Source: Paramecium tetraurelia (lineage: Eukaryota). From it: a stretch of DNA of 64,000 bases. The stretch lies in assembly GCA_000165425.1 (NCBI GenBank), contig CT868055.1, positions 1-64,000 on the forward strand, written 5' to 3'. The translations under genes and the position numbers were made by a program. The notes beneath the pieces are model-generated. The model was given only the letters and a program-made list of their open reading frames with translations, was not told where the DNA came from and searched no databases. Positions 1-27,566 of the stretch are shown here, one piece after another. Positions within the stretch are counted from its first letter, which is position 1. Each line of letters opens with the position of its first letter.

Positions 1-1090
1 AATTGCAGTTAATTTTTAATTCTATGTTAGAAATCGACTTTTTTATTGTATGATATCCATTTCCTGTAAAAATAACTTAATCACCAGTAAATTCAACTGA
101 AAACATAGGCCTAGGTAAACCTCTATATTCAAGTTTCGAAGAAAATCTTATAAAATTGCAGAGAATAGGCGAAAATACTTTTGTAAAAGATTTCAGCATT
201 CGAACTTTTCTATGGTAATTTGTAGTATATCCTGCCCCCCCTATAAATTGATATTGATTTAATTTTACAATCTTTTATCTAATATTTTGTACCAACACCA
301 TTGTTATCTATAACTACTAACCATTGTAATATATATGTATTCAGAAAATCCATACCGGAAAATGGATAAAACTCTACTCGATCTGCTTGATTAGGATCGT
401 ATACATTAGAATCATAATTTGAAAGCGCTAAAATTGTGTTAGATTAAATGAAGGCTTCATCAATTCCTAAAATAATTTAAAATCCAATAGAGGTTAAATT
501 TTCTGATTTTCCAGGAGAATAGGGGGAATATATTGAAACTATATTAGGAGGTGTTAAAATAACCTATTATAAAATGAAATTTTACTGATAATTAAACCTC
601 TGTAGACCCTTTCTAACTAAAACTTGTAAGTGTAACGAAAGAAGTATCACAATTTGCGTTTGCATAATAATAACTGAGGTTCTAAGGCGGAATCAAATTA
701 AACTAACTGATAACTTATATTCTTTGATCATCAACTGCAAACCACCTTATTTTGAACCTATAGCCTTTCTCATATTCACAGTACAATCGCATAGCAAAGT
801 CTATGATCTTCAATTATACACTTACTTGTTAATGTAATGTCTGTAATGCTAAAATTGAAACCAGAATCATTATAATTTTTACCCCAATGCATCTCTATCT
901 TCTCATGAGTGATAAACACTTGCGGAATATTTGCAAATGAGTCTGAGAATGTTATTGTTGCATCATATATTGATCCTTTACTACAATTAAAATCTGGTAC
1001 AACATCCTTGTTCCAATCTAGATAATAGTTACTATCATATTTTATTGTTGCCAGCCCTATTGGGAATATCAAAAATGTAATAATCAACAT
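1..1090 (-). CDS. Secreted H-type lectin domain protein, copy A (3' end runs off the window)
   Basis: Signal-peptide-like MLIITFLIFPIGLA, then ITFSDSFANIPQVFITHEKIEM..GFNFSITDITLT|NFAMRLYCE..YRFKIRWFAV, matching the H-type lectin pattern (F...F..PPQV...D...ITDIT..GF...W.A). Three tiny introns. Inverted near-copy of 14848-15934. Confidence 0.8.
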
Positions 1091-1273
1091 AATAAAATAA
1101 TAAATTGAAAAACTAATTAAACAATGTTTTAATAGAGCTTATTTAAGAAAGATAAATATAAAAATGGATGATATTCAGTTTTACAACATAGATTAAAAGC
1201 AAATTGTAAATAATGCAGTATAATGATGTTGAAAGATAAAGTAATTAAAATAAACAGAATAATAATAAAAAAA

Positions 1274-1394
1274 GGGTTGTCAACACGAGGACTTCCCAAG
1301 CGGTCCCCCACCTTAGTACTAACCTTGCCTTAAGCCGCTTAACTTCGGAGTTCGAATGGGATCCGGTGCTTTAGACTTAGTATGGCCGACAACC
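1274..1394 (-). rRNA. 5S rRNA gene, copy 1
   Basis: Reverse complement reads GGTTGTCGGCCATAC...GATCCCATTCGAACTCCGAAGTTAAGCG...AGTACTAAGGTGGGGGACCGCTTGGGAA...GACAACCC. The ends pair (helix I) and a T-run terminator follows. Confidence 0.97.
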
Positions 1395-2076
1395 ATTATT
1401 ACAATACAATTCCTTATTTATAACTCGTTGATTAGTGAGTTAATAAACTTTTATTTTTAATTATCACCTTATTTAATAAAATACTAAATTGCAAAAATTA
1501 AGATAATTTGATTGTCTTAAGTCTTATAAAAATTATATTAAAATTTATATAAGTTAACAAATATTATTATCTAAATTTGATCCAAAAGTCAGGCTATATT
1601 AGTCCTATTCAACTTATTTTCGTTTTAAGAATGACTTCATAGATTTATTTTTTCGTTCTTTGAAATAGATAGGGGGTCTCTTTTATTATATAAAATCTCT
1701 TAAGAAAAACACTTATACATAGTTTAGATTATATCTTACTAGAAGAATTCTAATAGATTTTTATATACTTGTATACATTAGAATTATGTTAAAGGCTTAC
1801 CCGTGTAAACAAAGCATATGGATATCCTATCTAACTTTTTGTATACAATTTTTTATTTATTTTTAAAGCTTCAGCCAAATTGATTGTGGATTCTAATCAT
1901 TTTATACACCCCATTATTTAGTTTACGATAAAGTTCTCTATCCTAAATAGGAGTATTGATTCTAATTAGAAAAAACCAAAATTCTATGTCATTATTACAA
2001 TTGCAATTCTTAAAATTTTTATGCTATATTTAATTAAAATTATTTATAAAAAATGAAATATTGTTGTCTAAATTGA

Positions 2077-2806
2077 TCATAACTTTTTTTGAAGATAGTA
2101 ACACAAGGTGTTTATATCATGCTTCATAAGATATTCGCTATTGACCCATCTATTTTTTGGAACAATACCTAAAATAGAATTAGATGATAGTATTACCATT
2201 GGGTCTCTTTTGCCACAATAGATAATACATTTTATGTCCTTTATCCTTTACTTGTACAGCTTGGCCAATCTTATCCAATAGATCTCCAAACTCAAATCCG
2301 CCTTCACATTGTAATTTGATTTCAGTGTTTTTCTGGGATTATTCTGATGTGGATTCTTAAATGATTTCAGAATCCTGCTATTAATTAGGTTACAAAGTCT
2401 TTTCATTCTATTAATTAGTAGTAATTAACTAGACTAATTCATCTTGTTATTTCTTCATTAGATCTATTTCTGACTTTAATTGATCTACCTAATTTTGTAA
2501 TATTTTTATTTGTTCTTATTGGTGTTAATGCTAATTCTATTTGGATTTGCTGGGCACTCCAATAAAATCCTCTAATTGAGGTGGTTCATCATTTTGGATA
2601 TGATAAAAATTCGATCCATTATTTTTAACATTTTCTTCAAATTGGTGCAAAAATTAAGTTAAATTTGGTATCTTGTCTGGTTTCTCCCAGGTGCAATCTC
2701 TGTTATTATAGCCTTGCCATTTGACAAGATAATATTTCTAGCCATTGTATTATTTATAATCAAGTATCTACTCTATAAAATACAATCCTCTCTTTTTTCT
2801 GGACAT
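2077..2806 (-). CDS. HP1-like protein (chromodomain, coiled coil, chromoshadow-like domain)
   Basis: MSRKKRGLYFIEQILDYKQYNGQKYYLVKWQGYNNRDCTWE is a chromodomain. C-terminal YYLLWQKRPNGIVPKNRWVNSEYLMKHDINTLCYYLQKKL* is chromoshadow-like. One intron. Confidence 0.88.
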
Positions 2807-2944
2807 CAATAAATTGGTATTTTTAAATTAATTTTCAATTTATATATATATTAATATGTAAATACTCAGATCATAAGGCTTTTATGATTAGATCACTAAA
2901 AAAATTAGTTTAAATATTTGTGAGTAATAAAAGTATTATATAAT

Positions 2945-3571
2945 TCATTAATTTCTTGAATAAATATTTGGTAATAAAGTTGGATTGTTGTGATGTCTTT
3001 GCATTCTTACATATTCATCGATTTCTAATGACATTTCTTCAGATTTCAACTTGTATCCTTCAAAATCCTCATCAATAAAATTGAAGTTTGGAGACGCAAG
3101 CTATTACTATTTGACTTAGCTCAATCGCTAAACCTGAGGAAACACAAATCGTTATCTCGCTACATGATCAGAAATTGACAAACCCCTGAGTTCCTTTGGC
3201 TTTTAATCCTTGCTTCTTTTGCTTACCTTAGCATTGGGATTGTTCAGAGGACTAGCATTGTTTTCAAGTAATTGATTTACTGATACATTTAGAGGGACTG
3301 AATTCTTTTTTTTTTGTAGCGCAATACTTCCAACTACTCTTTATTAATTGCTTAGTAATCCTGGAGATTATAATTGACTTGGAGATTATTATAAAAAGTG
3401 ATTGTATCTATGTTTGGATATAGATAACTTCTTCTTTCCACTCTTCACAGGTGATGAAATGAATGCATTTCTCAGTAAATTGTCCCTATCCAAATACTCA
3501 TCATACATCAATTCCTATACTATTTTTTGAACTGATCTATTTTAGAAATTATGGGGCAATTAAAAAGTCAT
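2945..3571 (-). CDS. Hypothetical protein (~200 aa)
   Basis: Open frame under code 6 from MTFQLPHNF to ..PNIYSRNQ*, one tiny intron. Confidence 0.6.
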
Positions 3572-3588
3572 AATATATATTTAATAAA

Positions 3589-5743
3589 TCAATTTCTTTT
3601 CTTATTGAGAAGTAATATGATGTTTGTTATATTGAATTTGGTTTTATAATCTTGGAATTCTACCATTTTATCGATCTCAAATAATGAATCAAGATCCTAA
3701 AAACAATTCTGCTGTTATGGGCTGCTAGCAATTATTGAACGTTTAATGATATTATCTGGACTAGTTAGATTTCGTAAGAAAGTGCTACTAATTATAGGTT
3801 CCGTCAACTTATCCGATATAATATCAGCCTATAAAATCTCCTTGTATAAATATTTTGTAGACGGTTGTTTAGTGAGTTGATCCACTCCAATATTGGCACT
3901 GCTGATATGTTCACTTGAGTTATCAGAGAAAGCTTCGAAACTATCAGAACTCTATTCAAATACATTGTTGTTACTCGTACCTTAATAGGTAATCTAATTC
4001 ATATTTTATGATCTTACCTACTAAAATATTGCAGATCTTGACTTTTTGGTCACCTTCCGATTATATCGAGGGTCTCTTTCCTGATAGATCTAATCATAAT
4101 TGAATCTCCTCTTAATATTGAAAGAGGAACAGTTAAAGGTAGGATGAAATGAATCACAAAAATAACATCTAAAATTCAACTTAGATGTATCATTGTTAAA
4201 TATTATGTCATCTTTTATCATCTGAAAAACTTCCTATATTATTATTGCAATGATACCCTTTCTTTCGATTGCTGCAAAATACTAATAAGAATTTGTTTCT
4301 CAATGAAAAAATACAGCACCTCTTTGGAATCGGTTTGCTCTAATTTTACTCTCCCTTGCTATTGATTGTTGATGATTTCAGTCAAACTTAATTCTATAAC
4401 TTTTTGGCTTAATAACTTAATGTGAAATCCCATAAATTCCGCATAAATGTTGCCATTAAGGATTATATATAACCCATCGATCTCCGTACTGCAGATCGAT
4501 TTATAACTTATAAGATAATCACATTTAAAGACTGGCTCTAAATCAAGGATCCATTTTGACTTATTAAATTTAAAGTGCTCGAGGATAAAAATTTAATTTT
4601 TGATAACTCTTGTTTGATCAGTTTCTGTTTCAGATAATTTGAAACCTTATTGATTCTTGACTCCTACTAAATTGTTTGATCTTCCTCCAGGATTTCAAAA
4701 ATTTTTGAGTAATGAATTATAATCAGCTTGCATCTGAAACATATGAGCTATGATTGAAGATAAAGTCGGAATGAGTCTAATAATTATTGATGTTTGGATT
4801 TTTCACTGGTACCCATTAATAGACACTTTAGTATGTATAAAATCAACCCTGCATTAAAAGTAACATTCAATATCATTAACAATTCATTTTCGACCTCCAT
4901 TTCTTCAACTTTCAATAATGATATGAAAAATGCTCTATAAATGGCTTCTTAATATGAAATAAATTCCTAGTTCCTCTCCTGATATTCTATTCTCCACATA
5001 CTACCAAATAGATGAAGTGAAAAATAGATACACGTTAGGATTTTGAAATATTGTTACTGTCTATGAATGATAAATGTAAAAATATACTCATAATTCAAGA
5101 AAGTAAGCAATTTACCAAAATATTTTGATTATTTTAAAATTTCCAACAAACAAGTAAATTGACAAGATCCCAAATGCTAATGAGTTTTCCATGATAGAAC
5201 AAATTGTATAAACTACCAGATTTATAACCTATACAACAGGTAGTTACCTCATCTAATGTTTTAGACTCTAGGAGTACAGTTTAAGTAAAAGTGAGACTAT
5301 TTCAAACGAGATAATCAAAATAGTAATTGCCACTTTTAATTGTGTTGATTTATATCTTTATAATTACAATGATCTTACTTATATTCTTCAAAATAAATGG
5401 ATGGTAAAATAAATGATAGGACTAGTAAAATTGATTTTATTAAATCAGAAAAAATAAATTTTGCTATCCAAAAATTTTCATTTCTCAATAGTTATTAGTC
5501 CCCGTCATTTTGTTTACAATTTTATTGCAATTCGGATAATTTTATTAGATTTTCAGGAATTTCATTCTTTTCACTCTCAGTATCACTGTATTTTCCTATC
5601 GAATGTTAGATCATTCGATCCGTTCCTTATTGCAATTTGTAATGGCTGGCATTGCAGGATTAAAATGAGGGCCAATTCATTGAAACATCATTTGAAGGAT
5701 ATTTAAGTGGTTTATTCCTTTCTAAAGAAATAATATTGTTCAT
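3589..5743 (-). CDS. Ciliate cation-channel family protein with degenerate cyclic-nucleotide-binding domain
   Basis: Hydrophobic N-terminal half, GLYIILNGNI (CNBD-like strand), FQMIKDDIIFNN..CYFCDSFH..C and terminal FEIDKMVEFQDYKTKFNITNII, typical of ciliate CNBD-channel paralogs. Start uncertain (5743 or 5840). Confidence 0.65.
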
Positions 5744-6129
5744 TTCTTGTTTTAAGTATAATATAATTACTCTGGATTATTCTCAAGAATTCCAAATTAA
5801 ATAATTATTAATCATATAGATATTTAATAAACCAATACATATGGCGAATTCTTTTATGTCAATTTTTGGCTCTGTTAATCGAAAAATAGTTTTTGTAAAT
5901 AAACCATTTATTAAAAAATATTACATTTGTTGTTGAAATTATATTTAAAATCAATTTTAACAAAATAATCAACTTAGAATTATTAGATTATCTAAATATT
6001 GATAAGTACAAAAGTATTAAATTCATATTTTTATAATTTATTCGTTTCTAACTTCATAATGTGCTAAAAAAAGATAATTTTATCACATCATCAAAAGTTT
6101 TGATGTTGAAAACATATTTAGTAAAAATC

Positions 6130-8282
6130 ATGTTGCAAGACGCTTACGATTTAGGTTAATAAAAATTAATATATCCTTAAGATAAGAAAATAGCATTAAA
6201 TTTTAGATCATTTTATTGTGAATATAACAATATTCATAAATCAAAATGAAAAATTTAGAATAAGAAAATGAAAAACTTCGAAAGGCTATAAAAGATAAAA
6301 AGCAACAAATATCTGAAGCAAATACGACGATACTACAATATCAAAATAGTATTGAAGAATATGATCAAGAAAAATAAACAATTATACAGGATATAAATGA
6401 GTTAATCAATAAAAAAGATAAAAATTTTGATAAGAGAATTAAGGGAATTATAGAAAGACTTCCTTGCTAGATAGAACAGAAAAGTTTATAATATTTGACA
6501 AAATCTATTATAAATAAAGGATTGAATGTGTTGAATGATCTGAATATTGCCTATAAGAATGCCTACAAAGAAGAATACAATAAGTCTTAAGATGCAAAAC
6601 CCTAACCCTTAATAGAATCATATTTTATAATTATACTTAAGCATAAGGATATTACGGATCTGTAGAAAGAGGAGACAATATTGAAGCCGAAGTTTTTATA
6701 TCAACTATGCAATTCAGGGTGGACATCAAAAGAAAGAGAAAGCTGGGTTGACTACTAAAAGGATATAATAACTCATTTCGATAATAATTATGTTGTTGTA
6801 GAAAGACTAGATGATATTTCAAAAATATAGAATTTAATTACTAAGTATAAAATCAAAAATAATTTAGGTGTCTAAATAAATAAGATGTGTTATAAGAAAA
6901 CTCTTTTATTTTTAATCTCCAAGGTTCATCATTTGATGAGTAGGTGCCAAAAAATATTGAATTGTTAGCAAGTGTTAACCCAAACAAATAATTGTTCGCC
7001 TTTGTCTAGGGTGTTGATGATTATATTACAAGTTTTTCAGATGAAGGGTTTTCTTATTGGCCGTGTAAAAAGTACTATTGTTTTTTGACATATTTTCCAA
7101 TCCCTGAAATATTTGATCAACTTTTAAAATTCGCATCCAGTATTTAAGTTTTATATCATATTTAGACTTAATTTAAGCATCTAGATTGGAGGCAATTATA
7201 AAATATTAAGACTATATAAATTAAAGATTGTAAATGACATTAGAGGAGAAAAATGAATATAACTAAAAAATATATTAGGATATAGATGCAGTTAATATTC
7301 ATTATGTATTTACAAATTTTAATTTTAGAGAGTAGAAAGTATTATGGAAGAGTGTATCAAATTATTAATGGGCTAATATCTCGATTTTGATAAACCAAGC
7401 ATAAATGTGGACTTGTAAAGTAAGTTACCTAATACCTTCAATGTTACACAAAAAACACTAATTTATTCCTTACCAATCTAATAAAGGAATATGAATATTC
7501 CTGAAAACCTTAAACAAATAAGGTATGAAATAGTAAAAAATAATAACATTAAATATGCTCATGTTGTGCAACAGATCTTCAACTTTGATACCTTTATTAA
7601 AATCTTTCAGGAGATCTTAAAAGAAGGAAATATTGTATTCTACTGCCAAAATCTCTATATTTTAACCTCTGTTTGTTACTTCTTTCATTAAATAATTTAT
7701 CCCTTCATATGGTTTGATGCAGCAATATACTATTCAAATCGAGAGAAATTAAACATATTGGTTGAAAAAGGTAGGTTTATAATAGGAATTAATACAACTT
7801 TTTATAATAATAAAGCAAACTAAAAAATAATTGAATCTAAAAATTTGATGATTGTAGATTTAAAAATCAAATAGGAAAAAGAGGGCTTCAAAGTTTAGCC
7901 GATCATACACTAAAATAAGCCTGGCAACATTGGGTTTTCAGTATTGACAAGGCAATTTTTTTAAATCAAATAACTTTTGAAAGATGAAAATGTTCCAGCT
8001 TCTATTTTCTAATATTGTATCGATGCAAATCAAGCCGCTAAATGTAGAGATTTCTTAGAATGCATGATGAAATTGATTTAGAATTGGTTGATTGACAGAA
8101 TTGTGCCAGATGCAGATCCCGATTTTACAATGGGCGGGTGGAATGATGGATTTATAAAATAAGTGGTTAAAAATAGGCTTAAGGATGATAAAGATATAGA
8201 CTTTATTTTGGAATATATTTACATTTCCAATTATTTTTAAAAGTATTTGAAATCGAAATACAATTATAATGATCCTAATTGA
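6130..8282 (+). CDS. DENN-domain protein with N-terminal coiled coil
   Basis: FIKIFQEILKEGNIVFYCQNLYILTSVCYFFHQIIYPFIW...FIIGI resembles the cDENN core. Start approximate. Confidence 0.7.
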
Positions 8283-8313
8283 ATATTAAAAATAATTAAT
8301 ATAAATATTAATA

Positions 8314-8646
8314 ATGAATTCTGAAAAAGATTTCCAATATGACATCCATGATGTATAAAATATTAAAACTGCCTTTTTGGATTTATAACAGGAAGAGAGC
8401 ACTGGATTTAAATTGGGATTAGGAGCTGCTATTTTCTCTTACTTTGCATTAAGAAGATTTACATATTTAAGGACAGGACCAAGGTATTGATATTGATTGC
8501 ACTATTTAAGATTCGTCGGATCAATGATCTTTGGCTCTTAAGTATATGGCTTCTACACCCATAGATCTAGAGCATATTATGATTATGTGGCTCAATAAGT
8601 AAATTTGCATGCATCCGAAGCAATTAATCAATGCCTTGGACATTGA
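8314..8646 (+). CDS. Small (~100 aa) two-helix membrane protein
   Basis: MNSEKDFQYD..GFKLGLGAAIFSYFALRR..FVGSMIFGSQVYGFY..CLGH*, one 27-nt intron. Confidence 0.7.
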
Positions 8647-8702
8647 CTATACGATCATTTATCAATATAAAATACAAAATAACATATCTATTGTATCCTG
8701 AA

Positions 8703-9622
8703 TCATAATAAAAACTCAAAGTCAGAATTCTTTATTCCATCTCCAAAATAAGCATATCCAAATGTATAGTCATTGTTATAAGTGACATAGCCTGGCCAAA
8801 TCAAATTCCTTAATGTTATCTGATTCTCATAATAAATAGAATTACATTTCTTTGTGTTGAATCTGCTTGCAAAGACCATTATTGATTAGGAGTGTCATCC
8901 ACTAAAGAGTCCAAGAAATCTTCCCTATACAGAGCCTCATCACGAGCTTTATGATACAATTTCAATTCTACCTATTAAGTCCTGCTTATCCTTCCTTGTG
9001 GGAACTCTAAAATGTTAATAATTTTTTAATTCAGCTTTCACTCCCTTAAATGCCTTTCTGATTAATTCGTGAGTAGGTGTCAAACGGTAGGATCCCACAG
9101 GTATTGATGCACAATTGAATTCAACCTACTAAACAACATAAGACAGTCTTTCTAATTCTGAAAAGTGTTTAGCTGGCAGTTACGCAGGGATGTCCAGAGA
9201 ATCCTCAAAATTGATCTCCTCTTCTGTCTTGAACACAATATGTTCATGCTAACCTGTAAAGGGCTCTCTTAAGTTGTCTGCTCTTGATGCATATTCTTCG
9301 TTATATTTTGGTAACTCAGCAAAGTGATAATTATTCGAACTAAATACATTCATCTCTAATTGCATACCTCCAATAGAATTTTTTTAATGGGAACTCGTAT
9401 TACCCTTTATATTGAATTCCCATCGCTATATAATAGTCTTTTTCTACTCCTTCCACTCTTCCCCAAAACAATACTTCATCAAATGTATAATGCTCTTGAA
9501 TCTTTAGAATTGCCAATTTTAGTTTTATTCTACCCTTAATATTTCAACCTATACCTTTCTTCCATATTCAAAGTCTACCCTATCTATTAAATGAATTTCA
9601 AGTCATTAAAGGAGATATCCAT
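8703..9622 (-). CDS. RSPH9: Radial spoke head protein 9
   Basis: LFWGRVEGVEKDYYIA, ELERLSYVV..ASIPVGSY, LRNLIWPGY..FGYAYFGDGIKNSD motifs. Confidence 0.9.
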
Positions 9623-9822
9623 TAAAATAAATAATAAAATATTATATAATATATTTAGTTTGTGAGAGCTTCAAGTGTTTTTAAGATAGCCTCTATGATG
9701 AATGATTAGTCATATCTTAGTTATCACACGGACTCATTAAGGAATGATTATATTGTATAGATTAAATTTGAGATATTTAGATTTGTTTTAATTACCGAAA
9801 AAGATTTGTATTAATAATTAAT

Positions 9823-10778
9823 ATGGCCACCAAAAGAAAGTATTTAAGGAATGTAGTTGATAACTAAAAGCCTGAAGAGAACGTCATCAGAGTGACAAAT
9901 CGTGTCTAATCATCAAACTATGTTAGAAGAGCTTTGTGGCTATTCTAAGGGACTCGTAAAGAAAATCAACCACCTGCCTTCGATACTGTAATTATAACTG
10001 CTATTGATAACGCTATTACAAAGGCGATTATTATATCTGAAGTTGTAAGAAGAAGAATAGCTGGCTTATACTAAATTAATACCATTAAATAGGTTGAAAT
10101 CAATGAAGTTTATGAACCACTGGAGGAAGGACTAGTGACTGTTAATGTTTCTAGAAAATTAGCATCTTTCTAGATTAAATTAACTAAGACACCAACTGAA
10201 CAAGAAAGAAAAGAACCAGGATTTCATGTAATGAATTAAAAATTATAATAAAGGAACTTTTACCACCTGATCAAATTTAAACAACTAGACCTGAAAGATA
10301 AAGATCTCCAAGAGGAAATAGAAGCAAATCAGATAACAGAAGAAATTACAGCAATAGAAGAGATGATAGAGATGACAATAGAGTTAATAGAAGAGATAAT
10401 AGAAGAGATAATAGAGATGATAATAGAAGAGATAATAGAGATGATAGAAGAGACAAAAGAGGTGATAGAAGAGATAACAGAGATAATAGAAGAGATAATA
10501 GAGATAACAGAGATAACAGAGATGATAGAAGAGATAACAGAGATAACAGAGATGATAGAAGAGATAATAGAGATAACAGGGATAACAGAGGTAACAGAGA
10601 TAATAGAGATAACAGAGATAATAGAGACAATAGAGATCATAGAGATAACAGAGACAATAGAGACAATAGAGATCATAGAGATAATAGAGAGAAGAGAGAT
10701 AATAGAGATAATAGAGAAAGAGATAACAAAGAAGGTGGCCAACAAAAAACAAGGGGTGGGGTTAAATAATAATAATGA
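9823..10778 (+). CDS. Alba/Rpp25-like nucleic-acid-binding protein with (RDN)n tail
   Basis: VIITAIDNAITKAIIISEVVRRRIAGLYQIN..EVYEPLEEGL..PGF is an Alba-domain pattern. One intron. Tail of RD[N/D/H] repeats. Confidence 0.88.
10355..10730 (+). repeat. Coding tandem repeat of AGAGATAAY (9/12-nt units; Arg-Asp-Asn)
   Basis: Directly visible. Variation falls mainly at third codon positions in the RDN frame. Confidence 0.95.
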
Positions 10779-10936
10779 GTTCATTAAAAAGATATAGCAG
10801 AATCACAGTCTCATCATTTCTCCCTTTCTCCTTTATTAACATTTAAACTAAATGTTTTAAATTACTTTCTCCTATTATATCTTAGAGTCTTAAAAATATA
10901 TAAAATGTATTAACATATGTGTTAATATATAATATC

Positions 10937-12502
10937 TCAAATACCTTTCTCTTTTTCTTTGGTTTCCTATTCTGACTTAATTTTGTCAATTAATTCATGA
11001 AATCTTTTTATTTTTTCAATATAGTCAAAGTAATCTCCTTTCTACCTCTTAAAGTTCACGCATATAATATTCTTCCTGGTTTCTAATTGTGCTATTTCAG
11101 CTTTCAGAATTGTTGGTGTTTCACTTTCAATTATTAACTATAATAATCTAAGAATACTTACACTAAACTCATATTTTTCTGATTCTTTCTAGATTTTTAA
11201 ATTATATTCATTATCCTCTAATTATTTTTTTAGCAAATCCATGAATAAATTTGGATTTATACTGATTAAATAACTATCAGATCTTATTAAATCAACCTAA
11301 AATTATATTAAAAAAAAATACAGGTATTAATTTTATAGAAATATTCTAAATTTACTCTATCTCCTAATTTTCTTATTCATCTGAATCTGATCTAAACTAC
11401 CCCAATCCTCCTTATACTAAAAATCACTATTATTATACATATTGATTTATCATTGCTGATAATATTTTTCCCTTTATTAATTTAGCGAGTTAAGGTTTCT
11501 TTTATAATGCATTATTCAATCTTTTTTTACTTTGAAGAAAACTCTCTAACCATCTCTTCTGTGAATTCAGAATTACACTAAGTCCATGGGTGATTATAAA
11601 CTTCACTTAAGGAGAGTCTATTTTTTGGACTATCTGTCAACATTCCTTGTATAAGGTCCCTAATGTAAATAGTTAAAATGATAAAAAACTTAAAGTCATC
11701 AGTGAAAGCAACATTTTGATTATCGATTTACATTAGTTTCCAGATTGCTTGGGGTGCAGTTTGAAATCCTGAAAAATTTGGATTTGTCTTCTCAGTGTTG
11801 GAGAATATAGGTCTTCCAACCATCAATATAAACAAGATCATTCCTAGTGCAAATATATCTTTGCTTTATTCATAATTGTTGTTCTCCTTAGCCCATGATG
11901 GAGACTCAAAAGCTATATACTGTTTAAGATTGTTTTTACAATATTTTTTTTTTCTTATCTAATTCAGTCCTAACTCTCCAATTTTAATGGTTTTAGCATC
12001 AGTAAAAAAAATGACTTCTGCTGTCAACTCTCCATGATATATTCCTTACTTATGAATTGAGATCAATCCTTTAAATTATTAGTTTTATTACCATCAACAA
12101 GTTATTTAAAATAGTGTCTGGCTTGTGCTTCATGAAATTTTCCTGTTTAGAATAAGTATTCAAACAGTTCCCCTCCCTTTGGATATTCATATATAACACA
12201 TGATCTAGACATTGTGGTGCTATTTTTTTTCTTATTGTCATTATATAAACTATACTGTGTAGATTCCTTCATTTCTAATTTATATGATCTTAAGAATGGA
12301 AGGATGCTCTAAGTTTTGGATAATTTATAATTGTTAAAGTTAATCTCTCAAGCTGACATCGAAAAAATTGAGCAAAAAGTATTGCCCTTGATTATTTTTC
12401 CCTATTTTCACTTTGTACTATTAATGATAGTCATCCTTGTACCTCCTTGCAACCAAAATAATGTTAAATCTCAAATTCATCATATTTTGCTTTTGTTTAC
12501 AT
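10937..12502 (-). CDS. CAMK/SNF1-like pseudokinase
   Basis: LEHPSILKI, YEYPKGGELFEYL..FHEAQARHYFKQL, DIFALGMILFILMVG are kinase-fold motifs. Catalytic motifs are replaced (HGELTAE for HRDLKPE, ELG for DFG). Confidence 0.85.
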
Positions 12503-12607
12503 TAGTTGTTTAAACAAAAATTATAAAATCAATAAAATTCTTTTCTTATTTCCCTCGCTTAATATCAAAAAATATATAATAAACTTTATATCGTCTCAAT
12601 AGTTACA

Positions 12608-13708
12608 ATGATGAATAATAAATTTAGAATTTATATTTTTAGTATTAAACATATATATAGGATTGTTAATTGATATAAATCAAGTTTCTAGTAATTAAAT
12701 TTTAGACTAAGGAACAAAACGAAAAATTAAGAGTTTTTAGACAGTTCTCAATAATATTGAATAAATTCTCTATAAGCAAATATTTTTTGCTATAAAGTAC
12801 TTAATTTAAATAATTTTTATCCTCGATCTTTCGGTTTCATGCAAAGACTATATAATTTTGAGGATGGTAGTGTATATGAGGGATAATGGTCGAATAATAA
12901 ATAGAATGGGCAAGGTAAATAGATCTATCCTGACAGCAGTTCTTATGATGGGAATTGGAGTAATGGCATGAAGAATGGGAAAGGAATTTACAATTTTTCT
13001 GATGGTAGTTAGTATTCTGGAATGTGGAAGGATGATCAAAAGCATGGTTTAGGGAAATATAAATATAAAGATGGGAGTTATTACGATGGAGAATGGCAAA
13101 AGAATGTTTAACAAGGAGATGGAAAGTTTGTCAATGTTGATAATAGCCAATATGAAGGGTAATGGGTTAACGGAAAGAAACATGGGCATGGCAGATACTA
13201 TTATGTTGATGGAAGCTTTTATGAAGGAAAATGGGAAAATGGTTAAAAGAATGGATTGGGAAAGATGTAATATAAAAATGGAAGTTTTTATAAAGGATTA
13301 TGGAAGAATGATCAAAAGAACGGAAAAGGAATCTATAAATAATTAGATCGAAGTTGTTATGAAGGGGAGTGGTTGAATAATAAGTAAAATGGTTTTGGTA
13401 AACAAACTTATTAAGATGGGAGTATTTATGAGGGGGATTGGATTGATGCTTAGAAAAATGGGAATGGCAAATATAAATATCCTGATGGTAGTTACTATAA
13501 TGGATAATGGAAGGATGGGTTCAAGCATGGGTTTGGAAAATATAAATTTACTGATGGCAGTTCATATGAAGGTGAATGGGTAAATAACGTACAACACGGA
13601 TAAGGAGTCTTCATATAGCAAGGAGTATTTTAAAAAGGCATTTGGTTTAATGGAATGTTAACCGATATTATTAGTTGTGTTACATCTAGAAATAGCATAG
13701 AACTTTGA
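12608..13708 (+). CDS. MORN-repeat protein
   Basis: About 11 repeats of DGSxYxGxWxNxxKxGxGKY (23 aa period). Start approximate. Confidence 0.9.
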
Positions 13709-13780
13709 TATTAAATAAATTAAATGCGCCTGCTCTGTATTCATTTTTAATATCAATTATTTTGTAATCTTTATTTATTT

Positions 13781-14358
13781 TCAAAATTGTAATTGTTTTT
13801 ATAAATGCTGGACTTGGTTATCAATATCTTTCTCAAAGTGTTTTAGAGATTACTCAATATATTAATTTTCTGCCACAATTCTGCTATATTCACTTTAGAA
13901 TTACTAATTCAATTGTTTCAGATTGTCTATTTACTCTATTTTGTCTATATATTTACAGTTTGATAATTTTCAAGAGCAGCATCTTAATCTTATGATTTCT
14001 TGGTCGCATCTCTTTGAGATTTGTATAATTCTAACAAAGGAATTCCTAGAACACATGAATACACAAATATATCTGCAAATAAATCAGAACCTACATTTAT
14101 TCAAATATTACCTTTAGTTAAGGCTGCTTCATCAGTCAAAGGTTTAAAAAACATTTCTTAACTTTTTATTCCAATAGATTTTCGATTTAAAAAAGTCTCA
14201 AAATTATGGTATTTGTTTCCTAGGAACACAAAGCTAGTTTTTATAAGACTTGGCTTTCTTGATCTATGCTTATTCAATGCGTATCTCTTAATTTAATTCG
14301 ACAAAGGTCTTGAGAATGTACGAATCAATAAAGAAGCTAATTTTTATATTGGAATCAT
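13781..14358 (-). CDS. OPA3: OPA3-like protein
   Basis: MIPIQKLASLLIRTFSRPLSNQIK..PLTDEAALTKGSDLFADIFVY..LLELYKS followed by a coiled coil. The 3' splice and end are approximate. Confidence 0.8.
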
Positions 14359-14517
14359 TTAGTATTTTTAATAACATAATTTTCATAAATAAATTTTAAA
14401 TCATATTATAATATATCATTATTCAAAAGAGAAAAAACTATTCATATACAAATATGAGTTATCAATACTTATTTCTTAACTTTAATTGTAGTAATTATAA
14501 TATTATTTAATAGGGAA

Positions 14518-14525
14518 TATAAATA
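14518..14525 (+). promoter_or_regulatory. TATA-like element at -28 of 5S (also 16517-16524 and 1415-1422 on minus)
   Basis: TATAAATAAGGAATTGTATTGTAATAAT is identical upstream of all three 5S copies. Copy 1 homology ends exactly at TATA. Confidence 0.75.
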
Positions 14526-14545
14526 AGGAATTGTATTGTAATAAT

Positions 14546-14666
14546 GGTTGTCGGCCATACTAAGTCTAAAGCACCGGATCCCATTCGAACTCCGAAGTTA
14601 AGCGACTTAAGGCGAGGTTAGTACTAACGTGGGGGACCGCTTGGGAAGTCCTCGTGTTGACAACCC
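14546..14666 (+). rRNA. 5S rRNA gene, copy 2
   Basis: Same 5S sequence, followed by a T7 terminator at 14667-14673. Confidence 0.97.
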
Positions 14667-14847
14667 TTTTTTTATTATTATTTTGCTTATTTTAATTAAA
14701 TTATCTTTAAACATCATTAAACTGCATTATTTACAATTTGCTTTTATCAATGTGTAAAACTGAATATCATCCATTTTTTAAAATTATCTTTCTTAAATAA
14801 GCTCATTTAAACATTGTTTAATTAGTGTATAAATTTATTATTTTATT

Positions 14848-16194
14848 ATGTTGATTATTACATTTCTGATATTCTCAATAGGGCTGGCAACAATAAAATA
14901 TGATAGTAACTATTATAATTAATGGAATTATAATGTTTAATCTGAATTTGTTTGTTGGGGAGGAGCCAGATTTGACGCAACAATAACATTCGCAGACACG
15001 TTTGCAAATATTCCCCAAGTTTTTATCACCCATGAGTTGATAGATATGGATTATAGATAGTTTATTACTTCTGGTTTCAATCTTAGCATTACAGACATTA
15101 CATTAACAAGTAAGTGTAAAATTTTTAATTATAGACTTTGTTATGCATTTGTACTGTGAATATGAGAGAGGATATAGATTCAAAATAAGGTGGTTTGCGG
15201 TTGATGATCAAAGAATATAAGTTATCAGTTAGTTTAATTTGATTCCGCTTAAGAACCTAAGTTATTATTATGCAAACGTAAATTGTGATACTTATTTCAT
15301 TACAATTACAAGTTTTAGTTAGATAGGGCCTACAGATGTTTAATTATCCGTAAAATTTAATTTTATAATAGGTTATTTTCACACCTCCTAATATAGTTTC
15401 CATACTTTCCCCCTATTCTCCTGGAAAATCAGAAAATTTAATCTCTCTTGGATTTTAAATTATTTTAGGAATTGATGAAGCCTTCATTTAATCTAACACG
15501 ATTTTAGCGCTTTCAAATTATGATTCTAATATATACGATCCTAATCAAGCAGATCGAGTAGAGTTTTATCCATTTTCCGGAATGGCATATGTCAATGATC
15601 ATTTGTTGTAATGGGTAGTAGTTATAGATAACAATGGTGTTGGTACAAAATATTAGATAAAAGATTGTAAAATTAAATCAATATCAATTTATAGGGGGGG
15701 CAGGATATACTACAAATTACCATAGAAAAGTTCGAATGCTGAAATCTTTTACAAAAGTCTTTTCGCCTATTCTCTGCAATTTTATAAGATTTTCTTCGAA
15801 ACTTGAATATAGAGGTTTACCTAGGCCTATGTTTTCAGTTGAATTTACTGGTGATTAAGTTATTTTTACAGGAAATGGATATCATACAATAAAAAAGTCG
15901 ATTTCTAACATAGAATTAAAAATTAACTGCAATTGTATCACTGGTAAAAAGATTAAAAGTAAATTGTTTAAATGTCAGAATTGTCCTGTAAATTAAAATA
16001 ATTATTAATTTGAACACTCTTGTTATGGAGCCATTAATTTATTATTTATTAATGCTCGATTTATAACTTAAACTACAGCCATTTAAGAATTATAAATTGA
16101 TATTACAGCTACAAGTTGTAAAATTACTTAATTAATCTACCATTAACAAAAATAAACCTATGTAATTGTTGATATATAAATCATTGATAGTTGA
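14848..16194 (+). CDS. Secreted H-type lectin domain protein, copy B (complete)
   Basis: MLIITFLIFSIGLA..ATITFADTFANIPQVFITHELIDMD..GFNLSITDITLT..RFKIRWFAV. Tiny introns. Ends ..IVDIQIIDS*. Confidence 0.82.
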
Positions 16195-16483
16195 ATAAAA
16201 ATATATGATTTAAATTAGGAATAACAATAATTTTTAATTTATACTGCATCATTGTTGTGCCTTTTTTACCTTCAAATAATTATAACATACAATTATTCTT
16301 AAATCTATAATATTCAAAATTTATTATGATCATATGAGCACATCATTGTTTTACAAAAATAACACTTAAAACAACATATTATGTTGGAATGTTCATTTTA
16401 TTTTATTTGAGAGTTTATCAATAATTCAGAATTAAATTGGTTTTTTTCTAGAAAACCAAATTCTTAAAATCTCCTATATTTTT

Positions 16484-16677
16484 ATTGTAGTAATTATAAT
16501 ATTATTTAATAGGGAATATAAATAAGGAATTGTATTGTAATAATGGTTGTCGGCCATACTAAGTCTAAAGCACCGGATCCCATTCGAACTCCGAAGTTAA
16601 GCGACTTAAGGCTAGGTTAGTACTAACGTGGGGGACCGCTTGGGAAGTCCTCGTGTTGACAACCCTTTTTTATTATT
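16484..16677 (+). repeat. Direct repeat of 14485-14679 (5S gene plus ~60-nt 5' flank), 1999-nt offset
   Basis: ATTGTAGTAATTATAATATTATTTAATAGGGAATATAAATAAGG... is identical in both. Homology ends 6 nt after the terminator. Confidence 0.95.
16545..16665 (+). rRNA. 5S rRNA gene, copy 3
   Basis: Same 5S sequence with a T6 terminator. Confidence 0.97.
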
Positions 16678-16805
16678 GCTCTAATAAATGGGATAATCAT
16701 ATTATTCAAAATTTTTAATATAAATTTATATTCAAATTATAAATTTAATAGTTTCATTAAATATTTGATAATAAAATATTAACCAAAATTTATTTTAAAA
16801 ATTAA

Positions 16806-17849
16806 TCAATAATTTAATTTCAATAATAAATAATCATTTTGATAAATGGAGAACCTATTACTATTCTGTTTGATCATCTATTCCAAGTATTCATTTCTTG
16901 GCAGATCTCTAATCCTCATCAAAATATCATAGTCATCAAGTTAAGAGAGAAGATCATACTCATAATCATCGATGTCATTCGAATTCTATAAAGAAAATCT
17001 TGAATAATTCATTATTATGTCATCAGCTAATTTTTATTCATCAGTGCGACCATCATACGGCAAGCAGTGTTGTAAGACACATTAGATATCTTCTTAATCA
17101 TGTACGAAATTATTTTCATAATCTTTGATTTTAGTGAAAATACAAATTTAGGAGGCATAACCATTCGTAAGGTCTCCAGATTTGTGTTGACCCACTCCCT
17201 CATAGATTGTTGAATAACGATATTTTGAAGCAAGAGCAGATGTCCATTCTAAAAATTCCTATTATGAAAACTCGAATTTGTGATCTGGGTGCCTCAAGAC
17301 AAACTTGGGGTTAAGCTATTTAAAATAGACATTGAAGTCAGAATTTGGAGTTGTAATGATAATTCTTTGAGGATTCAAATATCCAAATACATTTTCACAT
17401 AAGTCATCCAGTTATTCTAATTGCAAATGTTCTACCACCTCTATAAGTGTGATTAACTATATTTCGTATAATGAACAATACTTCAAAATTCATCTATTTG
17501 AGTTGTTTGTATTTCTTTAGAGCATTTCCATGGAACAATTTAATCCAACATTCTGATTTTCTATTTGATCTTAGACAGTCTTAGATCTGATCGTATACTA
17601 TGTTATCACTTCGATTAAAATGAAATTTTACCAAGCTTCTTTGAGAACTTCGAGATCTATGTCCAATCCAGCGATGAAATTGAAATCTAAGGAATGAGCT
17701 AATCTTTAAATAAATTTGCCATCATTGCATCCGATATCTAATGTTCTTTCCTTCTCTATATATTTATCCAGTTGTTGATGCCTTCTTTCCCATAGTCTCA
17801 TCCCCATATTGTCATAAAAAATATCATTTTCATAAGCTTTAATTTCCAT
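16806..17849 (-). CDS. HEN1: Small RNA 2'-O-methyltransferase Hen1
   Basis: LDIGCNDG (SAM binding), GLDID, IEVVEH, ITTPNSDFN, LRHPDHKFEF..EF..W, YEGVG: the Hen1 signature motifs in order. Confidence 0.93.
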
Positions 17850-18034
17850 TACTCCACTATTTAGTTAAGTTTATTTTAATAATAATTCCTGTAATTTATT
17901 ATCTGAACTATTAATGAGAAAAACCAAATCTCATTAGATTGAAATCCAATTTATCATTGTAATAATAAGGAGTAAAACAAGAATAAACAATGTTCTTTTA
18001 TTAGTAATGAACTGCTAACACACATAATTAAATA

Positions 18035-19035
18035 TCAATCAAATAAATCAAACGGGATAAATAATCCATAATAGGCAGCCAAAGTTCCACTCAGTACTTA
18101 ATCCTTATTTAAATTAAACTAATTATTGATTAAAGATAGATACTCTTCCAGATTGAATTTATTTCAAGACATTCATCAATAACAATGTGTATGGCATCAA
18201 GACTATTAAACTAAGTATCATTGGAACAAAAATGATAGCAAAAGGCAAGACACATAGGAACTCACAAAATAAGACCTCTATAAAATTTAACGTGAAAATT
18301 ACTTTAAAATCTGAATTCCTTGTTTTCTATTAGGATATATATTAACAAAATAATGGTAACTATGAAATTAGCGAATAATGGGATCACTATGAATATGCCA
18401 ACGATAAAAGAACCTAAATTTATTTGTATTATTAAAATACTTGGCAAATCGCTATTAGGACCTGAAGAAGAGGCTCTTAAGATAAAAAAGAAAATTAAGG
18501 TATATGCAAAGATAGATCCAAAGTAAAATAGAAGTGCTAATCCTGACTAATTAATGTATTATGATTTATTTACTTATCTAAATCTTTCCATTGATCCCAA
18601 TTTTACTAAAACAATCAATAAAATAACACTTGCAGAAATGCAATAAGGATATGAACTTCGGTGTTCATAAAATAATTTTGAAAACGACACTTACATCACA
18701 AATAAGAATAAGACAAATAAGAAGGTCCATAATGTGAACATTCCCAAAATGCTGCTTAAAAAGAACTTTTAAGTTAAGAAATCTTAGTCTTTCAATAATT
18801 TGGAGTAGACCGGTTGAAGTGGCTAATCGAGGTTGTAATAATTTGGTTGATTATTATTGATTTATTATGAATATGGGAGTATGACTTATTGATACTGTTG
18901 AAAATTAGGATTCTGTTGTGGCAAAACTGGTATGTATTTAATGTCTTCTTGGGTATTCTAGAATAATTAGGGCTGTGCATGGTCCCTCTATTCAGGAGAT
19001 TGAATATCAAATTATGGATATTTAACTTATTACAT
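18035..19035 (-). CDS. Multi-pass membrane protein, possibly Bax-inhibitor-1/lifeguard-like
   Basis: Q/P/Y-rich N-terminus, about 7 hydrophobic segments, ends FNLNKDQVLSGTLAAYYGLF. Family call is tentative. Confidence 0.55.
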
Positions 19036-19060
19036 AAATTTATAATGAAACAATAACAAT

Positions 19061-20455
19061 TCAAGTATAATAATAATTTTTGATCGCTGTTAACACAATG
19101 CAGAATGCTTTCTATACAGCTTTCTTATTATTATTTTATACTAGTGATATATAATAAAATCATGCTTTGCCTTAAGTGAAAATTTTGACAAATTCTTCAA
19201 AGCTAAATCTCAGCATCTTAGTCTCTTTAATAAATAAGAAAGCGTCATAGCCGCATGATTATCCCTCCATCAATAGATATGGATAAGCCAAGAGTAAGTT
19301 AGCTTTGGATATCAACAGTTTGTTTGGTTGAGGTTCTCGATTCAGTAAACATTTAAAGATTGTTAAGAAATTAATAGTTTATCTCCTGGTTATTTTGTAA
19401 TCCATTTGAATTTTGTCAATATTTACATTCTTCATAAAATATCTACCCTTAAAATTCGTTTTTAATTGAAAAGGACTACTAACTGAGGATATTTCTATGC
19501 TTCGAGATGAGGGTATGAACAAATTGGAGCATTCAACTTGCTCTTAGATTTATTATTGCAAATCCTCAGGATTGGTGATATTTTCCTATAAGATTTATTT
19601 TTCAATGGATTGTCTTGTCCTCGTTTTGATGTTTAATCTAATTAATTTATTTTATTTTTAGGAATAGTTAGATTTGCCATTCATCTCCTTATTCAATTGT
19701 TCAAAGATCTGCACTTTGGTTTTCTGCTTTTCAGTGTCCAACATAGCAAAGGCTGTATCGATCTCATGATCATCCAGATCAATTTTGGGTTGTACATTTT
19801 GTATGTATGGTAGTTTGTTAATATTCATGGTAAAGTATTATTTTATTGTGCTTTTGTTATTAAAAAAGAAGTCAAAGATTTGAGAGGAGTTTTAGAATTA
19901 TGAGATATCTTGATATAGTGAGTCGAGTAAGTTCATTTGAAAGGAACCATTAAATTAATTGTAATGAGCAATCATTTTCCAGAAATCAAAACTGTTATTT
20001 ATATAAAATACTTTCTAATTTGGCAAGTGAAAATTTTTAATCTGAGTGCCATCTAGAGTCCAAATTTTTGGAGTGGATTTTAAATTCAAAAGGGTTTTAA
20101 GATGCATGGATTGTTCAATAAAATCTGAAATGAGCTCATTTTCATTGTCAATTTTTGAATACAGTGGAATGTAATACTTAAATACTTTGAAATTGTTAAT
20201 AATGAAAACTTCTTAAAAACCTTGTTTCTTGTTAATTCCTTTATCAATTATTTTGTGTCTCACATATTTGATCAATCTCTCTGATTTCCATTGATCCTAG
20301 TAGGATAATTTATGGAAATAATTTGATTTATTGGATTCTGTTACTTGTCTTCTTGGGGTATGAAAAACGGTGGGGGAATTGGCAATGTTGTTTTACTCAA
20401 CTTGGAAGGATGTAGCAATTTTCAAACGAGGAACGCTGTTAAATCTTTTATTCAT
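19061..20455 (-). CDS. Hypothetical protein (~460 aa)
   Basis: Long open frame under code 6 starting MNKDLNSVPRLKI. No family recognised. Confidence 0.6.
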
Positions 20456-25590: not shown

Positions 25591-25767
25591 GTACGAATAA
25601 ATTTAATTCCAATTTGTATGCAATTGCAATTCAATATATTTTAATAATAATATTGATGTTTTTTGCCTTGAAAGATTTACATAAATGTTTTAAGAGTAAT
25701 TCGTCATTTAGTACTATTTAAAACATATATCAATCATCAAATTTTTGTAATATTTTAAAAAAAAAAA

Positions 25768-27112: not shown

Positions 27113-27566
27113 CATTTCATTATTGGAACACAAGGACCAATGAAAATGTTAAACATATATCATCCATTACAAAACCCCAACATTCATCCTAATTACATCA
27201 ATCTTACATTAAAGTATCTCTTATTATTGAATCCCTGACTCTCTCATTCGAACGTCTGAATCCCCCTTGAAAAATAAGGGAAAAAAAATAAAATCAATAA
27301 AATCTACTCGTATGTCTTGTATTAATAAATAATATAAGAATTTTAAAGCCATTTCTAATAATTTCACAAATTAATTAAATTTCCAATTTGCTCTTAATAT
27401 GATATTTTTTTAAACATACATTCTGAATTGTATCCATGATTCTTCTTGTTCTCGACCACAAGATCGAATAGAGTATATAGTATATATGACTCTTTAATTT
27501 GATTTTGACGATTTGAGGAAGAACCATCTGAATAATGAATGTATAAATAATGTTTAAAAAATATAC

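What the first reader, a model, noticed from the sequence alone, without database searches (positions are those of the whole stretch)
14485..16677. 5S rRNA gene plus H-type lectin gene cassette, duplicated as a unit and bracketed by 5S direct repeats
Seen: in both lectin copies a 5S gene lies ~180 nt upstream of the ATG in the same orientation, with the spacer conserved (1091-1273 vs 14667-14847). Copy B sits between two 5S genes 1999 nt apart that share ~60 nt of 5' flank. Homology with copy A stops at the 5S TATA element, so the duplicated unit begins at the Pol III promoter. Known: 5S genes are linked to other multigene families in several eukaryotes. Inference: dispersed 5S genes may act as recombination anchors that amplify, move or excise (~2-kb circle) a surface-lectin gene, or as a Pol III insulator or promoter aid. 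I do not recall this linkage being described.
Basis: partly seen in the sequence, partly recalled or inferred. Interest (0 to 1): 0.8.

Follow-up and report, generated by a model that had tools for sequence, protein, structure and literature searches.

The report
5S-anchored lectin pair, co-evolving by conversion
Two copies of a sugar-binding protein gene in Paramecium each sit just behind a 5S ribosomal RNA gene and have long exchanged sequence with each other, probably helped by the near-identical 5S genes; this is a local case of a mechanism known from fission yeasts, not a mobile cassette that spreads the gene family.

Summary
In detail: there are three intact 5S genes and two H-type lectin genes, and copy B lies between 192-nt direct repeats 1999 nt apart. 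It is not a family-wide cassette: only 2 of 44 H-lectin hits lie within 40 kb of a 5S gene, and only 3 of 26 5S genes lie beside a lectin. Nor is it a recent duplication or an assembly artefact. Independent runs hold both copies. P. octaurelia and P. primaurelia have lectins at both sites. The copies are homogenised within each species but keep ortholog-specific variable patches in the lectin domain. The 13-kb segment between the inverted copies is flipped relative to three ohnologous scaffolds and four other species. Neighbouring 5S genes elsewhere in the genome also share flanks, one with a tract ending at the same TATA box. A second 5S-gene-5S bracket (C102) has a clean single-5S ohnolog. 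Best reading: dispersed 5S genes anchor local non-allelic recombination, as described for fission-yeast wtf genes. Circles, excision, and insulator or promoter roles are not shown. My searches found no report of this in ciliates.

The parts
1..1090 (-). H-type lectin gene, copy A (exons 826-1090, 586-800, 269-563, 1-240); 3' end cut by the contig start
   Evidence: open frame of 338 codons; A-type letters also in runs X4 and X5
1091..1274 (-). Spacer between the 5S terminator and the ATG, copy A
   Evidence: 91-95% identical to copy B per 100 columns
1275..1393 (-). 5S rRNA gene A: the old 5S next to the chromodomain gene, kept at the same place on C678, C43 and C671
1394..1422 (-). 5S promoter-proximal 29 nt with the TATA box (1415-1422); left limit of A/B homology
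2041..2806 (-). Chromodomain gene used as a synteny marker; next to the lectin and HEN1 in other species (3' limit approximate)
   Evidence: PF00385; accessions
1423..14517 (.). 13-kb segment between the inverted copies, reversed relative to ohnologous scaffolds and to other species
14352..14517 (+). Distal 5' flank of 5S B1, homologous to the 5' flank of the 5S at G000:C65:2223 and not to copy A
   Evidence: 73% over 222 columns; score 135 against a shuffle maximum of 55
14481..14672 (+). First direct repeat (about 66 nt of flank, 5S gene, T-run)
14518..14525 (+). TATA box at -29; junction of the chimeric B1 promoter
14547..14665 (+). 5S rRNA gene B1
14666..14847 (+). T-run terminator and spacer up to the lectin ATG
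14848..16194 (+). H-type lectin gene, copy B (exons 14848-15109, 15135-15349, 15372-15666, 15695-16194; 423 aa)
   Evidence: spliced contig in run X17; all-beta model, pLDDT 89.6
14914..15095 (+). Variable patch in the lectin domain (codons 23-82): 25 residue-changing against 5 silent-only codon differences between A and B
15616..15934 (+). Near-identical tract between A and B (1 difference in 319 nt, up to the contig end); the inversion crossover lies here or further 3'
16195..16479 (+). Lectin 3' flank; a diverged homologous version exists in run X4, taken to be the unassembled end of copy A
   Evidence: tables 3, 5, 5c and 8
16480..16671 (+). Second direct repeat, containing 5S rRNA gene B2 (16546-16664)
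16797..17811 (-). HEN1 small-RNA 2'-O-methyltransferase gene (single copy; synteny marker outside the repeat)

Best explanation
This is an old, local pair of secreted H-type lectin genes tied to dispersed 5S genes and maintained by non-allelic recombination in cis. (1) Shown: the home site is chromodomain gene - lectin - HEN1, with a 5S beside the chromodomain gene on four ohnologous scaffolds. (2) Shown from protein trees and accession order: a second copy about a dozen genes away already existed before P. tetraurelia and P. octaurelia split; P. primaurelia has both sites too. (3) Inferred: that copy was written onto another 5S locus by a recombination or conversion tract that used the 5S gene as homology and ended at the TATA box. 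This gives B1 a chimeric promoter. B2 is a partial copy or conversion product of B1. (4) Shown: the two genes are homogenised within each species, apart from variable patches in the lectin modules; that these patches set sugar specificity is inferred. (5) Inferred, well supported: a crossover between the inverted copies, 3' of 15615, flipped the 13 kb between them in this lineage. The 5S genes act as passive homology anchors; no recombinase is encoded in the unit.
For: Concerted evolution: tetA and tetB are identical at 76 of 76 C-terminal residues against 61-62 of 76 to P. octaurelia, but share only 50 of 75 in the N-terminal domain. Among four-way informative sites, 31 group by species, 7 group by site (tetA=oct511, tetB=oct543) and 0 are crossed. 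The N-terminal tree joins tetA with oct511 (92/94); the middle part groups by species (81/86, 96/94, 95/95). Gene order by accession: octaurelia HEN1 9507, lectins 9509 and 9511, chromo 9513/9515, far lectin 9543; primaurelia 4837, 4838/4839, 4840, far lectin 4853; sonneborni 7443, 7444, 7446 and 8152, 8153 (lectin remnant), 8155. Inversion: window 2041-10724 runs backwards on C678, C43 and C671 while the large-scale order of 19000-63600 runs forwards. 5S anchoring: 3' flanks are shared over at least 20 nt in 5 of 12 same-scaffold 5S pairs against 3 of 313 other pairs; without C72, either flank is shared in 5 of 9 against 20 of 313. C671:208791 has a promoter whose distal part matches C671:231160 and whose proximal 29 nt match C671:202185. 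All three C671 5S genes carry C19T+G59A, and their C43 ohnologs do not. C102 has 5S-MaoC gene-5S where ohnolog C657 has one 5S at the same spacing to both neighbours. Both lectin copies are real: X4 and X5 hold A-type and B-type contigs side by side (16 against 2 differences over 15219-15431).
Against: I could not read DNA of the other species, so 5S adjacency there is untested, and gene order rests on accession numbers being sequential along contigs (an assumption). The left edge at the TATA box is partly expected anyway, because 26 of 26 5S genes have the box there. The C65 5S may derive from B1 rather than mark a pre-existing 5S at the B1 site; it is not syntenic with the window. The 1.3-kb lectin gene supplies more homology than the 119-nt 5S, so present-day conversion and the inversion need not involve the 5S at all. 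The thresholds were set after viewing the flanks and the pairs are not independent, so its P values are indicative only; recent local duplication of 5S genes would also give shared flanks. The direction of the C102/C657 event (gain or loss) is unresolved.
Confidence: 0.6

Rival explanations
1. Ordinary old inverted segmental duplication. The 5S gene travelled as a passenger, and the TATA-box edge is simply where unconstrained flank has decayed; the lectin genes convert each other without help from the 5S.
For: The linkage is confined to 2 of 44 H-lectin hits and 2 of 17 exon-4 homologues. One adjacency by chance has an expectation of about 0.06. The lectin-HEN1-chromo linkage is present on both ohnologous contigs of P. 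sonneborni, so its absence on C678 is a loss rather than an insertion on C72.
Against: The 182-nt spacer is 91-95% identical while similarity drops to background immediately 5' of the TATA box. B1's distal flank matches another 5S locus (score 135 against a shuffle maximum of 55). The same TATA-box junction recurs at C671:208791, where there is no lectin.
Confidence: 0.25
2. A mobile or excisable 5S-lectin cassette: recombination between B1 and B2 releases a 1999-bp circle that re-integrates at other 5S genes, or copy number varies in the macronucleus.
For: B1 and B2 are 99% identical direct repeats of 192 nt. P. octaurelia and P. primaurelia each have a second, partial lectin model in tandem between HEN1 and the chromodomain gene, as unequal crossing-over would give. 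C102/C657 has the form of a filled and an empty site. Run X1 shows no A-type letters.
Against: No lectin follows any of the other 23 of 26 5S genes. There are only 2 DNA-level copies in the assembly. The two-site arrangement has been stable across at least three species. X1 lacks the distal copy A, not the bracketed copy B, which fits loss of a chromosome end better than excision.
Confidence: 0.08
3. The inversion (not the duplication) is an assembly error: the assembler crossed between the near-identical 3' halves of the two lectin genes.
For: The contig begins inside the near-identical tract. In X4 a stretch of about 775 nt is collapsed at roughly twice the flanking depth. All other species and ohnologs examined have the opposite order.
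Against: X1 gives one unbroken 1867-nt contig (14647-16513; 3 differences, 0 gaps) that joins the B-type 5' part to the reference-type 3' flank, as assembled. There is no N gap in the window.
Confidence: 0.2
4. The 5S gene is kept upstream because it insulates the lectin gene or helps its promoter.
For: Spacing and spacer are conserved in both copies, and at least one copy is transcribed and spliced.
Against: At least 15 family members of the same architecture do without a 5S gene. Conversion alone explains the spacer's similarity. I have no expression test.
Confidence: 0.07

Closest known systems
wtf genes and dispersed 5S rDNA in Schizosaccharomyces octosporus and S. osmophilus (PMC9562144; passages and section 10 read)
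   Same: A protein gene beside or between direct dispersed 5S genes; syntenic sites with a single 5S; non-allelic gene conversion; the same two proposed routes (ectopic conversion, circle integration).
   Different: There 87% and 79% of wtf genes and 93% and 55% of 5S genes are associated. Here it is 2 of 44 and 3 of 26, all within 17 kb of one scaffold, and the passenger is a secreted lectin, not a meiotic driver.
Gene conversion between paralogs in the Paramecium aurelia complex (PMC11334263; passages read)
   Same: Conversion makes duplicates look younger than they are; the review notes a few segmental inversions.
   Different: The passage concerns whole-genome duplicates. This pair is an inverted cis duplicate 13 kb apart, with a 5S boundary and an inversion whose ends lie in the pair.
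5S genes linked to tandem multigene families such as histone, spliced-leader and snRNA repeats (recalled, not checked in a paper)
   Same: A 5S gene in fixed orientation beside an unrelated gene.
   Different: Those linkages are built into the repeat unit of a whole family; here only two members are linked.
Starship and other elements that insert at 5S rDNA (search listings only; details recalled)
   Same: 5S genes as preferred sites of sequence gain.
   Different: The 2-kb unit holds only a lectin gene, no recombinase, and occurs twice.
H-type lectins: discoidin I (2w94), Helix pomatia agglutinin (2ccv), SLL-2 (3wmp)
   Same: Residues 16-115 match by Pfam (E 2.7e-13) and by fold (Z 6.2, rmsd 2.4, 93 aligned; Z 5.5, rmsd 2.0, 87 aligned).
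   Different: The model's residues 16-278 best match single-chain beta-sandwich trimers (Z 6.6, rmsd 4.3, 222 aligned; a weak score), which suggests three modules in one chain plus a C-terminal Ig-like domain. Sugar binding is untested.

Membership tests
5S rRNA gene (RF00001) | Full-length match above the gathering score | tested here: met
   105.6-110.2 bits against 38, model positions 1-120, for 3 of 3
5S rRNA gene (RF00001) | T-run terminator and upstream TATA-like box | tested here: met
   T-run after all three; box at -29 in 26 of 26 genes
5S rRNA gene (RF00001) | Each copy transcribed by Pol III | not testable with these tools
   Only contigs were available; they do not separate the copies
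H-type lectin (PF09458) | Domain above the curated cut-off and H-type fold | tested here: met
   50.3 bits against 24; fold match to discoidin I and HPA
H-type lectin (PF09458) | Gal/GalNAc binding at a trimer interface (recalled) | not tested
   Binding residues were not mapped on the model
Surface-anchored lectin | Transmembrane helix or GPI signal | tested here: inconclusive
   The model shows one N-terminal helix (2-12) and ends in a beta strand; no dedicated predictor was run
wtf-type 5S-associated gene family | Most family members adjacent to 5S genes | tested here: not met
   2 of 44 H_lectin hits and 2 of 17 exon-4 homologues; the next nearest is 42 kb away; counts are lower bounds
wtf-type 5S-associated gene family | A large share of 5S genes occupied | tested here: not met
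   3 of 26
wtf-type 5S-associated gene family | Gene flanked by direct 5S repeats | tested here: met
   Copy B; also the MaoC-like gene on C102
wtf-type 5S-associated gene family | Syntenic site with one 5S and no passenger, showing gain at a pre-existing 5S | tested here: inconclusive
   The form is met on C678, C43, C671 and C657, but the sonneborni remnant favours loss on C678 and the polarity on C102 is unknown
wtf-type 5S-associated gene family | Non-allelic gene conversion among copies | tested here: met
wtf-type 5S-associated gene family | Extrachromosomal circles (proposed in PMC9562144) | not testable with these tools
   Contigs break at the 192-nt repeat; all 24 runs listed were kept as contigs
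5S-targeting transposable element | Encoded recombinase or transposase within the unit | tested here: not met
   The unit between B1 and B2 holds one gene, and only H_lectin passes a Pfam cut-off
5S linkage to a tandem multigene family | 5S is part of the repeat unit of the whole family | tested here: not met

The most novel reading that the evidence does not exclude
Dispersed 5S genes are working cis-recombination anchors in Paramecium. They build 5S-gene-5S brackets, remove or add the bracketed gene in one step (C102 against C657), and here help keep an inverted lectin pair that shuffles ligand-binding patches and lets the 13 kb between the copies flip. Orientation and lectin copy number would then vary among strains or macronuclei, which gives a testable one-step route for gene loss after whole-genome duplication.
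Probability: 0.2. Interest if true: 0.7.

Novelty: new member of a known kind. Interest (0 to 1): 0.42.

Why it matters
It would extend 5S-anchored non-allelic recombination from fission yeasts to a ciliate. [quoted passage not shown] It shows that 92% identity here does not mean a recent duplication, and it marks an inversion next to the single HEN1 gene. It does not reveal a new mobile element or a family-wide amplification system.

Tried and rejected
Family-wide linkage: rejected. I compared the positions of all 44 H_lectin hits with the 26 5S genes, and read the DNA around the 30 best hits; a 5S gene was found only beside the two window copies. Loose end at 16396 in X4 and X5: first read as the end of copy A, then rejected, because it is a chance match of about 22 nt to an unrelated gene at G000:C674:140516. 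Joints 14423->16536 and 14423->14537 are not counted as excision: the shorter side is 28 letters, and they probably come from the C65 5S flank. Joint 14170->16700 (side 28) is unexplained and probably an AT-rich chance match. X1's lower depth on the cassette (55 against 66-88) is not counted, because contig depth is no copy number. No remnant of the lectin or HEN1 was found at the ohnologous 5S sites. C65 as the ohnolog of the window's distal part: no syntenic genes in C65:1-30000, though its 5S lies on a 1.8-kb piece between two gaps and its proximal promoter best matches C678's (17 of 21; 46 of 325 pairs reach 17). The MaoC-like protein was not in the collection as an exact sequence, and C672 and C17 did not settle the polarity. 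Foldseek gave no match at E<=0.001. There are no tRNA genes and no telomere repeats in the window. The protein atlas did not answer. Literature: searches returned 0 papers; the listings of searches showed no title or abstract start on a Paramecium 5S-lectin linkage. Subscription papers, and supplements that I did not open, may describe these loci.

Full report
1. Observation. The window is the first 64 kb of G000:C72 in a 72.1-Mb, 697-contig ciliate genome; its chromodomain protein is identical to a record labelled Paramecium tetraurelia. Rfam finds three full-length 5S genes: A 1275-1393(-), B1 14547-14665(+) and B2 16546-16664(+). B1 and B2 lie in 192-nt direct repeats, 99% identical and 1999 nt apart. 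Positions 1-1422 are an inverted copy of 14518-15934 at 91.7%, and the edge is the first base of the TATA box at -29. Copy B has four exons and encodes 423 aa. Copy A is open but cut by the contig start, with its ATG at 1090. A spliced contig in run X17, whose RNA status is a guess by the tool, covers 15200-16088 with 50 letters of gaps, matching introns 2 and 3.

2. It is not a family-wide cassette. The genome has 26 5S matches, 44 H_lectin matches and 17 homologues of exon 4; these counts are lower bounds. Only the two window lectins lie near a 5S gene, and the next nearest is 42 kb away. A profile of the lectin found nothing in the 1.5-kb flanks of the other 23 5S genes. At DNA level there are two copies. 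About 0.06 such adjacencies are expected by chance, so one ancestral adjacency needs no special cause.

3. Both copies are real. I laid 4 of 24 listed runs, all of them contigs, on 12000-20000. X4 and X5 hold A-type and B-type contigs side by side. In X4 the near-identical part collapses at depth 167 against 72-92 for the flanks, and a diverged version of the 3' flank (16182, 16203, and 33 other letters in place of 16237-16313) merges again before 16370. In X5 one contig runs unbroken from 15407 to 16513. I infer, without proof, that copy A continues to the same flank and is followed by a further 5S gene outside the assembly. X1 gives one 1867-nt B-type contig and no A-type letters, so A appears absent or minor in that sample; loss of a macronuclear chromosome end is my guess. 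Excision cannot be seen in such data, because contigs break at the 192-nt repeat.

4. The pair is old and evolves in concert. Relatives of 421-424 aa occur in P. octaurelia, primaurelia and sonneborni. By accession order, which I assume follows gene order, octaurelia has HEN1 (CAD8209507), lectins 9509 (partial) and 9511, chromodomain 9513/9515 and a far lectin 9543. Primaurelia has 4837, 4838 (partial), 4839, 4840 and a far lectin 4853. Sonneborni has 7443, 7444, 7446, and on a second contig 8152, a lectin remnant 8153, and 8155. Pentaurelia has HEN1 1746/1748 and chromodomain 1742, with the gene between them not identified. Within each species the C-terminal parts are nearly identical (76 of 76, 79 of 80, 79 of 80), against 61-66 of 76-80 between tetraurelia and octaurelia. 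The N-terminal domains of A and B share only 50 of 75 residues. Of the four-way informative sites, 31 group by species, 7 by site and 0 are crossed. Trees agree for the N-terminal part (tetA with oct511, 92/94, below the tool's starred level) and the middle part (by species); the C-terminal tree is poorly resolved. Codons 23-82 differ at 25 residues against 5 silent-only codons, and codons 246-342 at 0 against 1. This is the pattern of gene conversion with protected or diversifying patches; no formal selection test was run.

5. The segment between the copies is inverted. On the ohnologous scaffolds C678, C43 and C671 the genes of window 2041-10724 run backwards, end at a 5S gene, and continue into genes of window 19000 onwards. 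In four other species the chromodomain gene is next to HEN1; here the two are 14 kb apart. Each N-terminal type stays with its own upstream neighbours, so the crossover lies 3' of the last diagnostic cluster (15615), in the lectin or beyond it, not in the upstream 5S genes. An assembly error is possible because the contig starts inside the near-identical tract. X1 joins the B-type 5' part to the reference 3' flank, which favours the assembled order. I put the error at about 0.2.

6. Do the 5S genes act as anchors? A TATA-like box lies at -29 in 26 of 26 genes, so the edge is where 5S homology ends by default. Four further results point to real exchange. (a) B1's promoter is chimeric: -194 to -22 resembles the 5S at C65:2223 (score 135 against a shuffle maximum of 55), while -29 to -1 equals copy A at 29 of 30 positions. 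(b) C671:208791 is chimeric at the same box, with no lectin nearby, and all three C671 genes share two substitutions that their C43 ohnologs lack. (c) Same-scaffold 5S pairs share at least 20 nt of 3' flank in 5 of 12 cases against 3 of 313 for other pairs; leaving out C72, either flank is shared in 5 of 9 against 20 of 313 (thresholds chosen after viewing the data, pairs not independent). (d) C102 has two direct 5S genes 1714 nt apart around a single-copy MaoC-like gene, and its ohnolog C657 has one 5S at matching distances from both neighbours. Against this: the C65 gene may derive from B1; the polarity on C102 is unknown; the sonneborni remnant shows that C678 lost the lectin, along with HEN1, which lies outside the bracket; and the lectin gene itself offers ten times more homology than the 5S gene.

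7. The protein. An AlphaFold2 model from 37 sequences (pLDDT 89.6) is all-beta after an N-terminal helix and has no C-terminal anchor helix, so 'secreted' is likelier than 'surface-anchored'. Residues 16-115 match discoidin I and Helix agglutinin. Residues 16-278 match single-chain beta-sandwich trimers weakly (best Z 6.6). A profile search gave 63 representatives at E<=0.001; the named ones I looked up were Paramecium.

8. What is known. PMC9562144 (passages and section 10 read; supplements not opened) reports 72 of 83 and 33 of 42 wtf genes associated with dispersed 5S genes, and proposes ectopic conversion or circle integration at pre-existing 5S genes. PMC11334263 (passages) notes widespread conversion between whole-genome duplicates and few inversions in the aurelia complex. 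PMC10066578 (passages) states that one Hen1 homologue is encoded. PMC1557398 (passages) counts 174 5S genes in Tetrahymena. Searches showed no report of this locus or of 5S-anchored exchange in Paramecium, within a library that lacks most subscription papers.

9. Verdict. The feature is real. It works like the wtf/5S case but fails that system's family-wide criteria. Best explanation (0.6): an old inverted lectin pair whose boundary was set by 5S-anchored recombination, kept alike by conversion, with a lineage-specific inversion between the copies. Novelty: new member of a known kind. Interest 0.42.

Noticed in passing
G000:C102:197409-199241 (L015, L016, L109) against C657:209034 (L011): A second 5S-gene-5S bracket, 1714 nt, around a single-copy, apparently intronless MaoC-like dehydratase gene (PF01575, E 9.5e-19); the ohnologous site has one 5S with both neighbours at the same spacing.
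   Followed up: partly
G000:C671:202185, 208791, 231160 and C43:43335, 49024: 5S genes on one scaffold share substitutions and 27-30 nt of flank; C671:208791 has a chimeric promoter with the junction at the TATA box.
   Followed up: partly
G000:C65:2209-2536 (L018, L030): A non-syntenic 5S gene that shares about 190 nt of 5' flank with B1, on a 1.8-kb piece between two assembly gaps; possibly a displaced ohnolog of B1. C65:1-1292 is duplicated on the small scaffold C448.
   Followed up: partly
window 16797-17811 (-): The single HEN1 small-RNA methyltransferase gene ends about 130 nt from 5S B2, next to an inversion boundary.
   Followed up: partly
window 15405-15406: All four runs laid carry A-type letters here on otherwise B-type contigs: a small conversion tract that differs between strains, or a reference error.
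   Followed up: no
window 1-1422; run X1: Run X1 shows no trace of copy A, while X4 and X5 have it: possible macronuclear or strain variation at the scaffold end.
   Followed up: no
window 14848-16194: The model suggests three H-type-like modules in one chain (a pseudo-trimer) plus an Ig-like domain; the family has at least 17 members in this genome.
   Followed up: partly
window 9798-10778 (+): A gene with a long Arg-Asp repeat tail (9- and 12-nt tandem units at about 10330-10750); its N-terminal part looks Alba-like (recalled, not tested).
   Followed up: no
window 25697-27809 against C43:55359-60540 and C671:212464-217525: A second, smaller inversion relative to the intermediate ohnologs, with no 5S gene at its ends in the window.
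   Followed up: no
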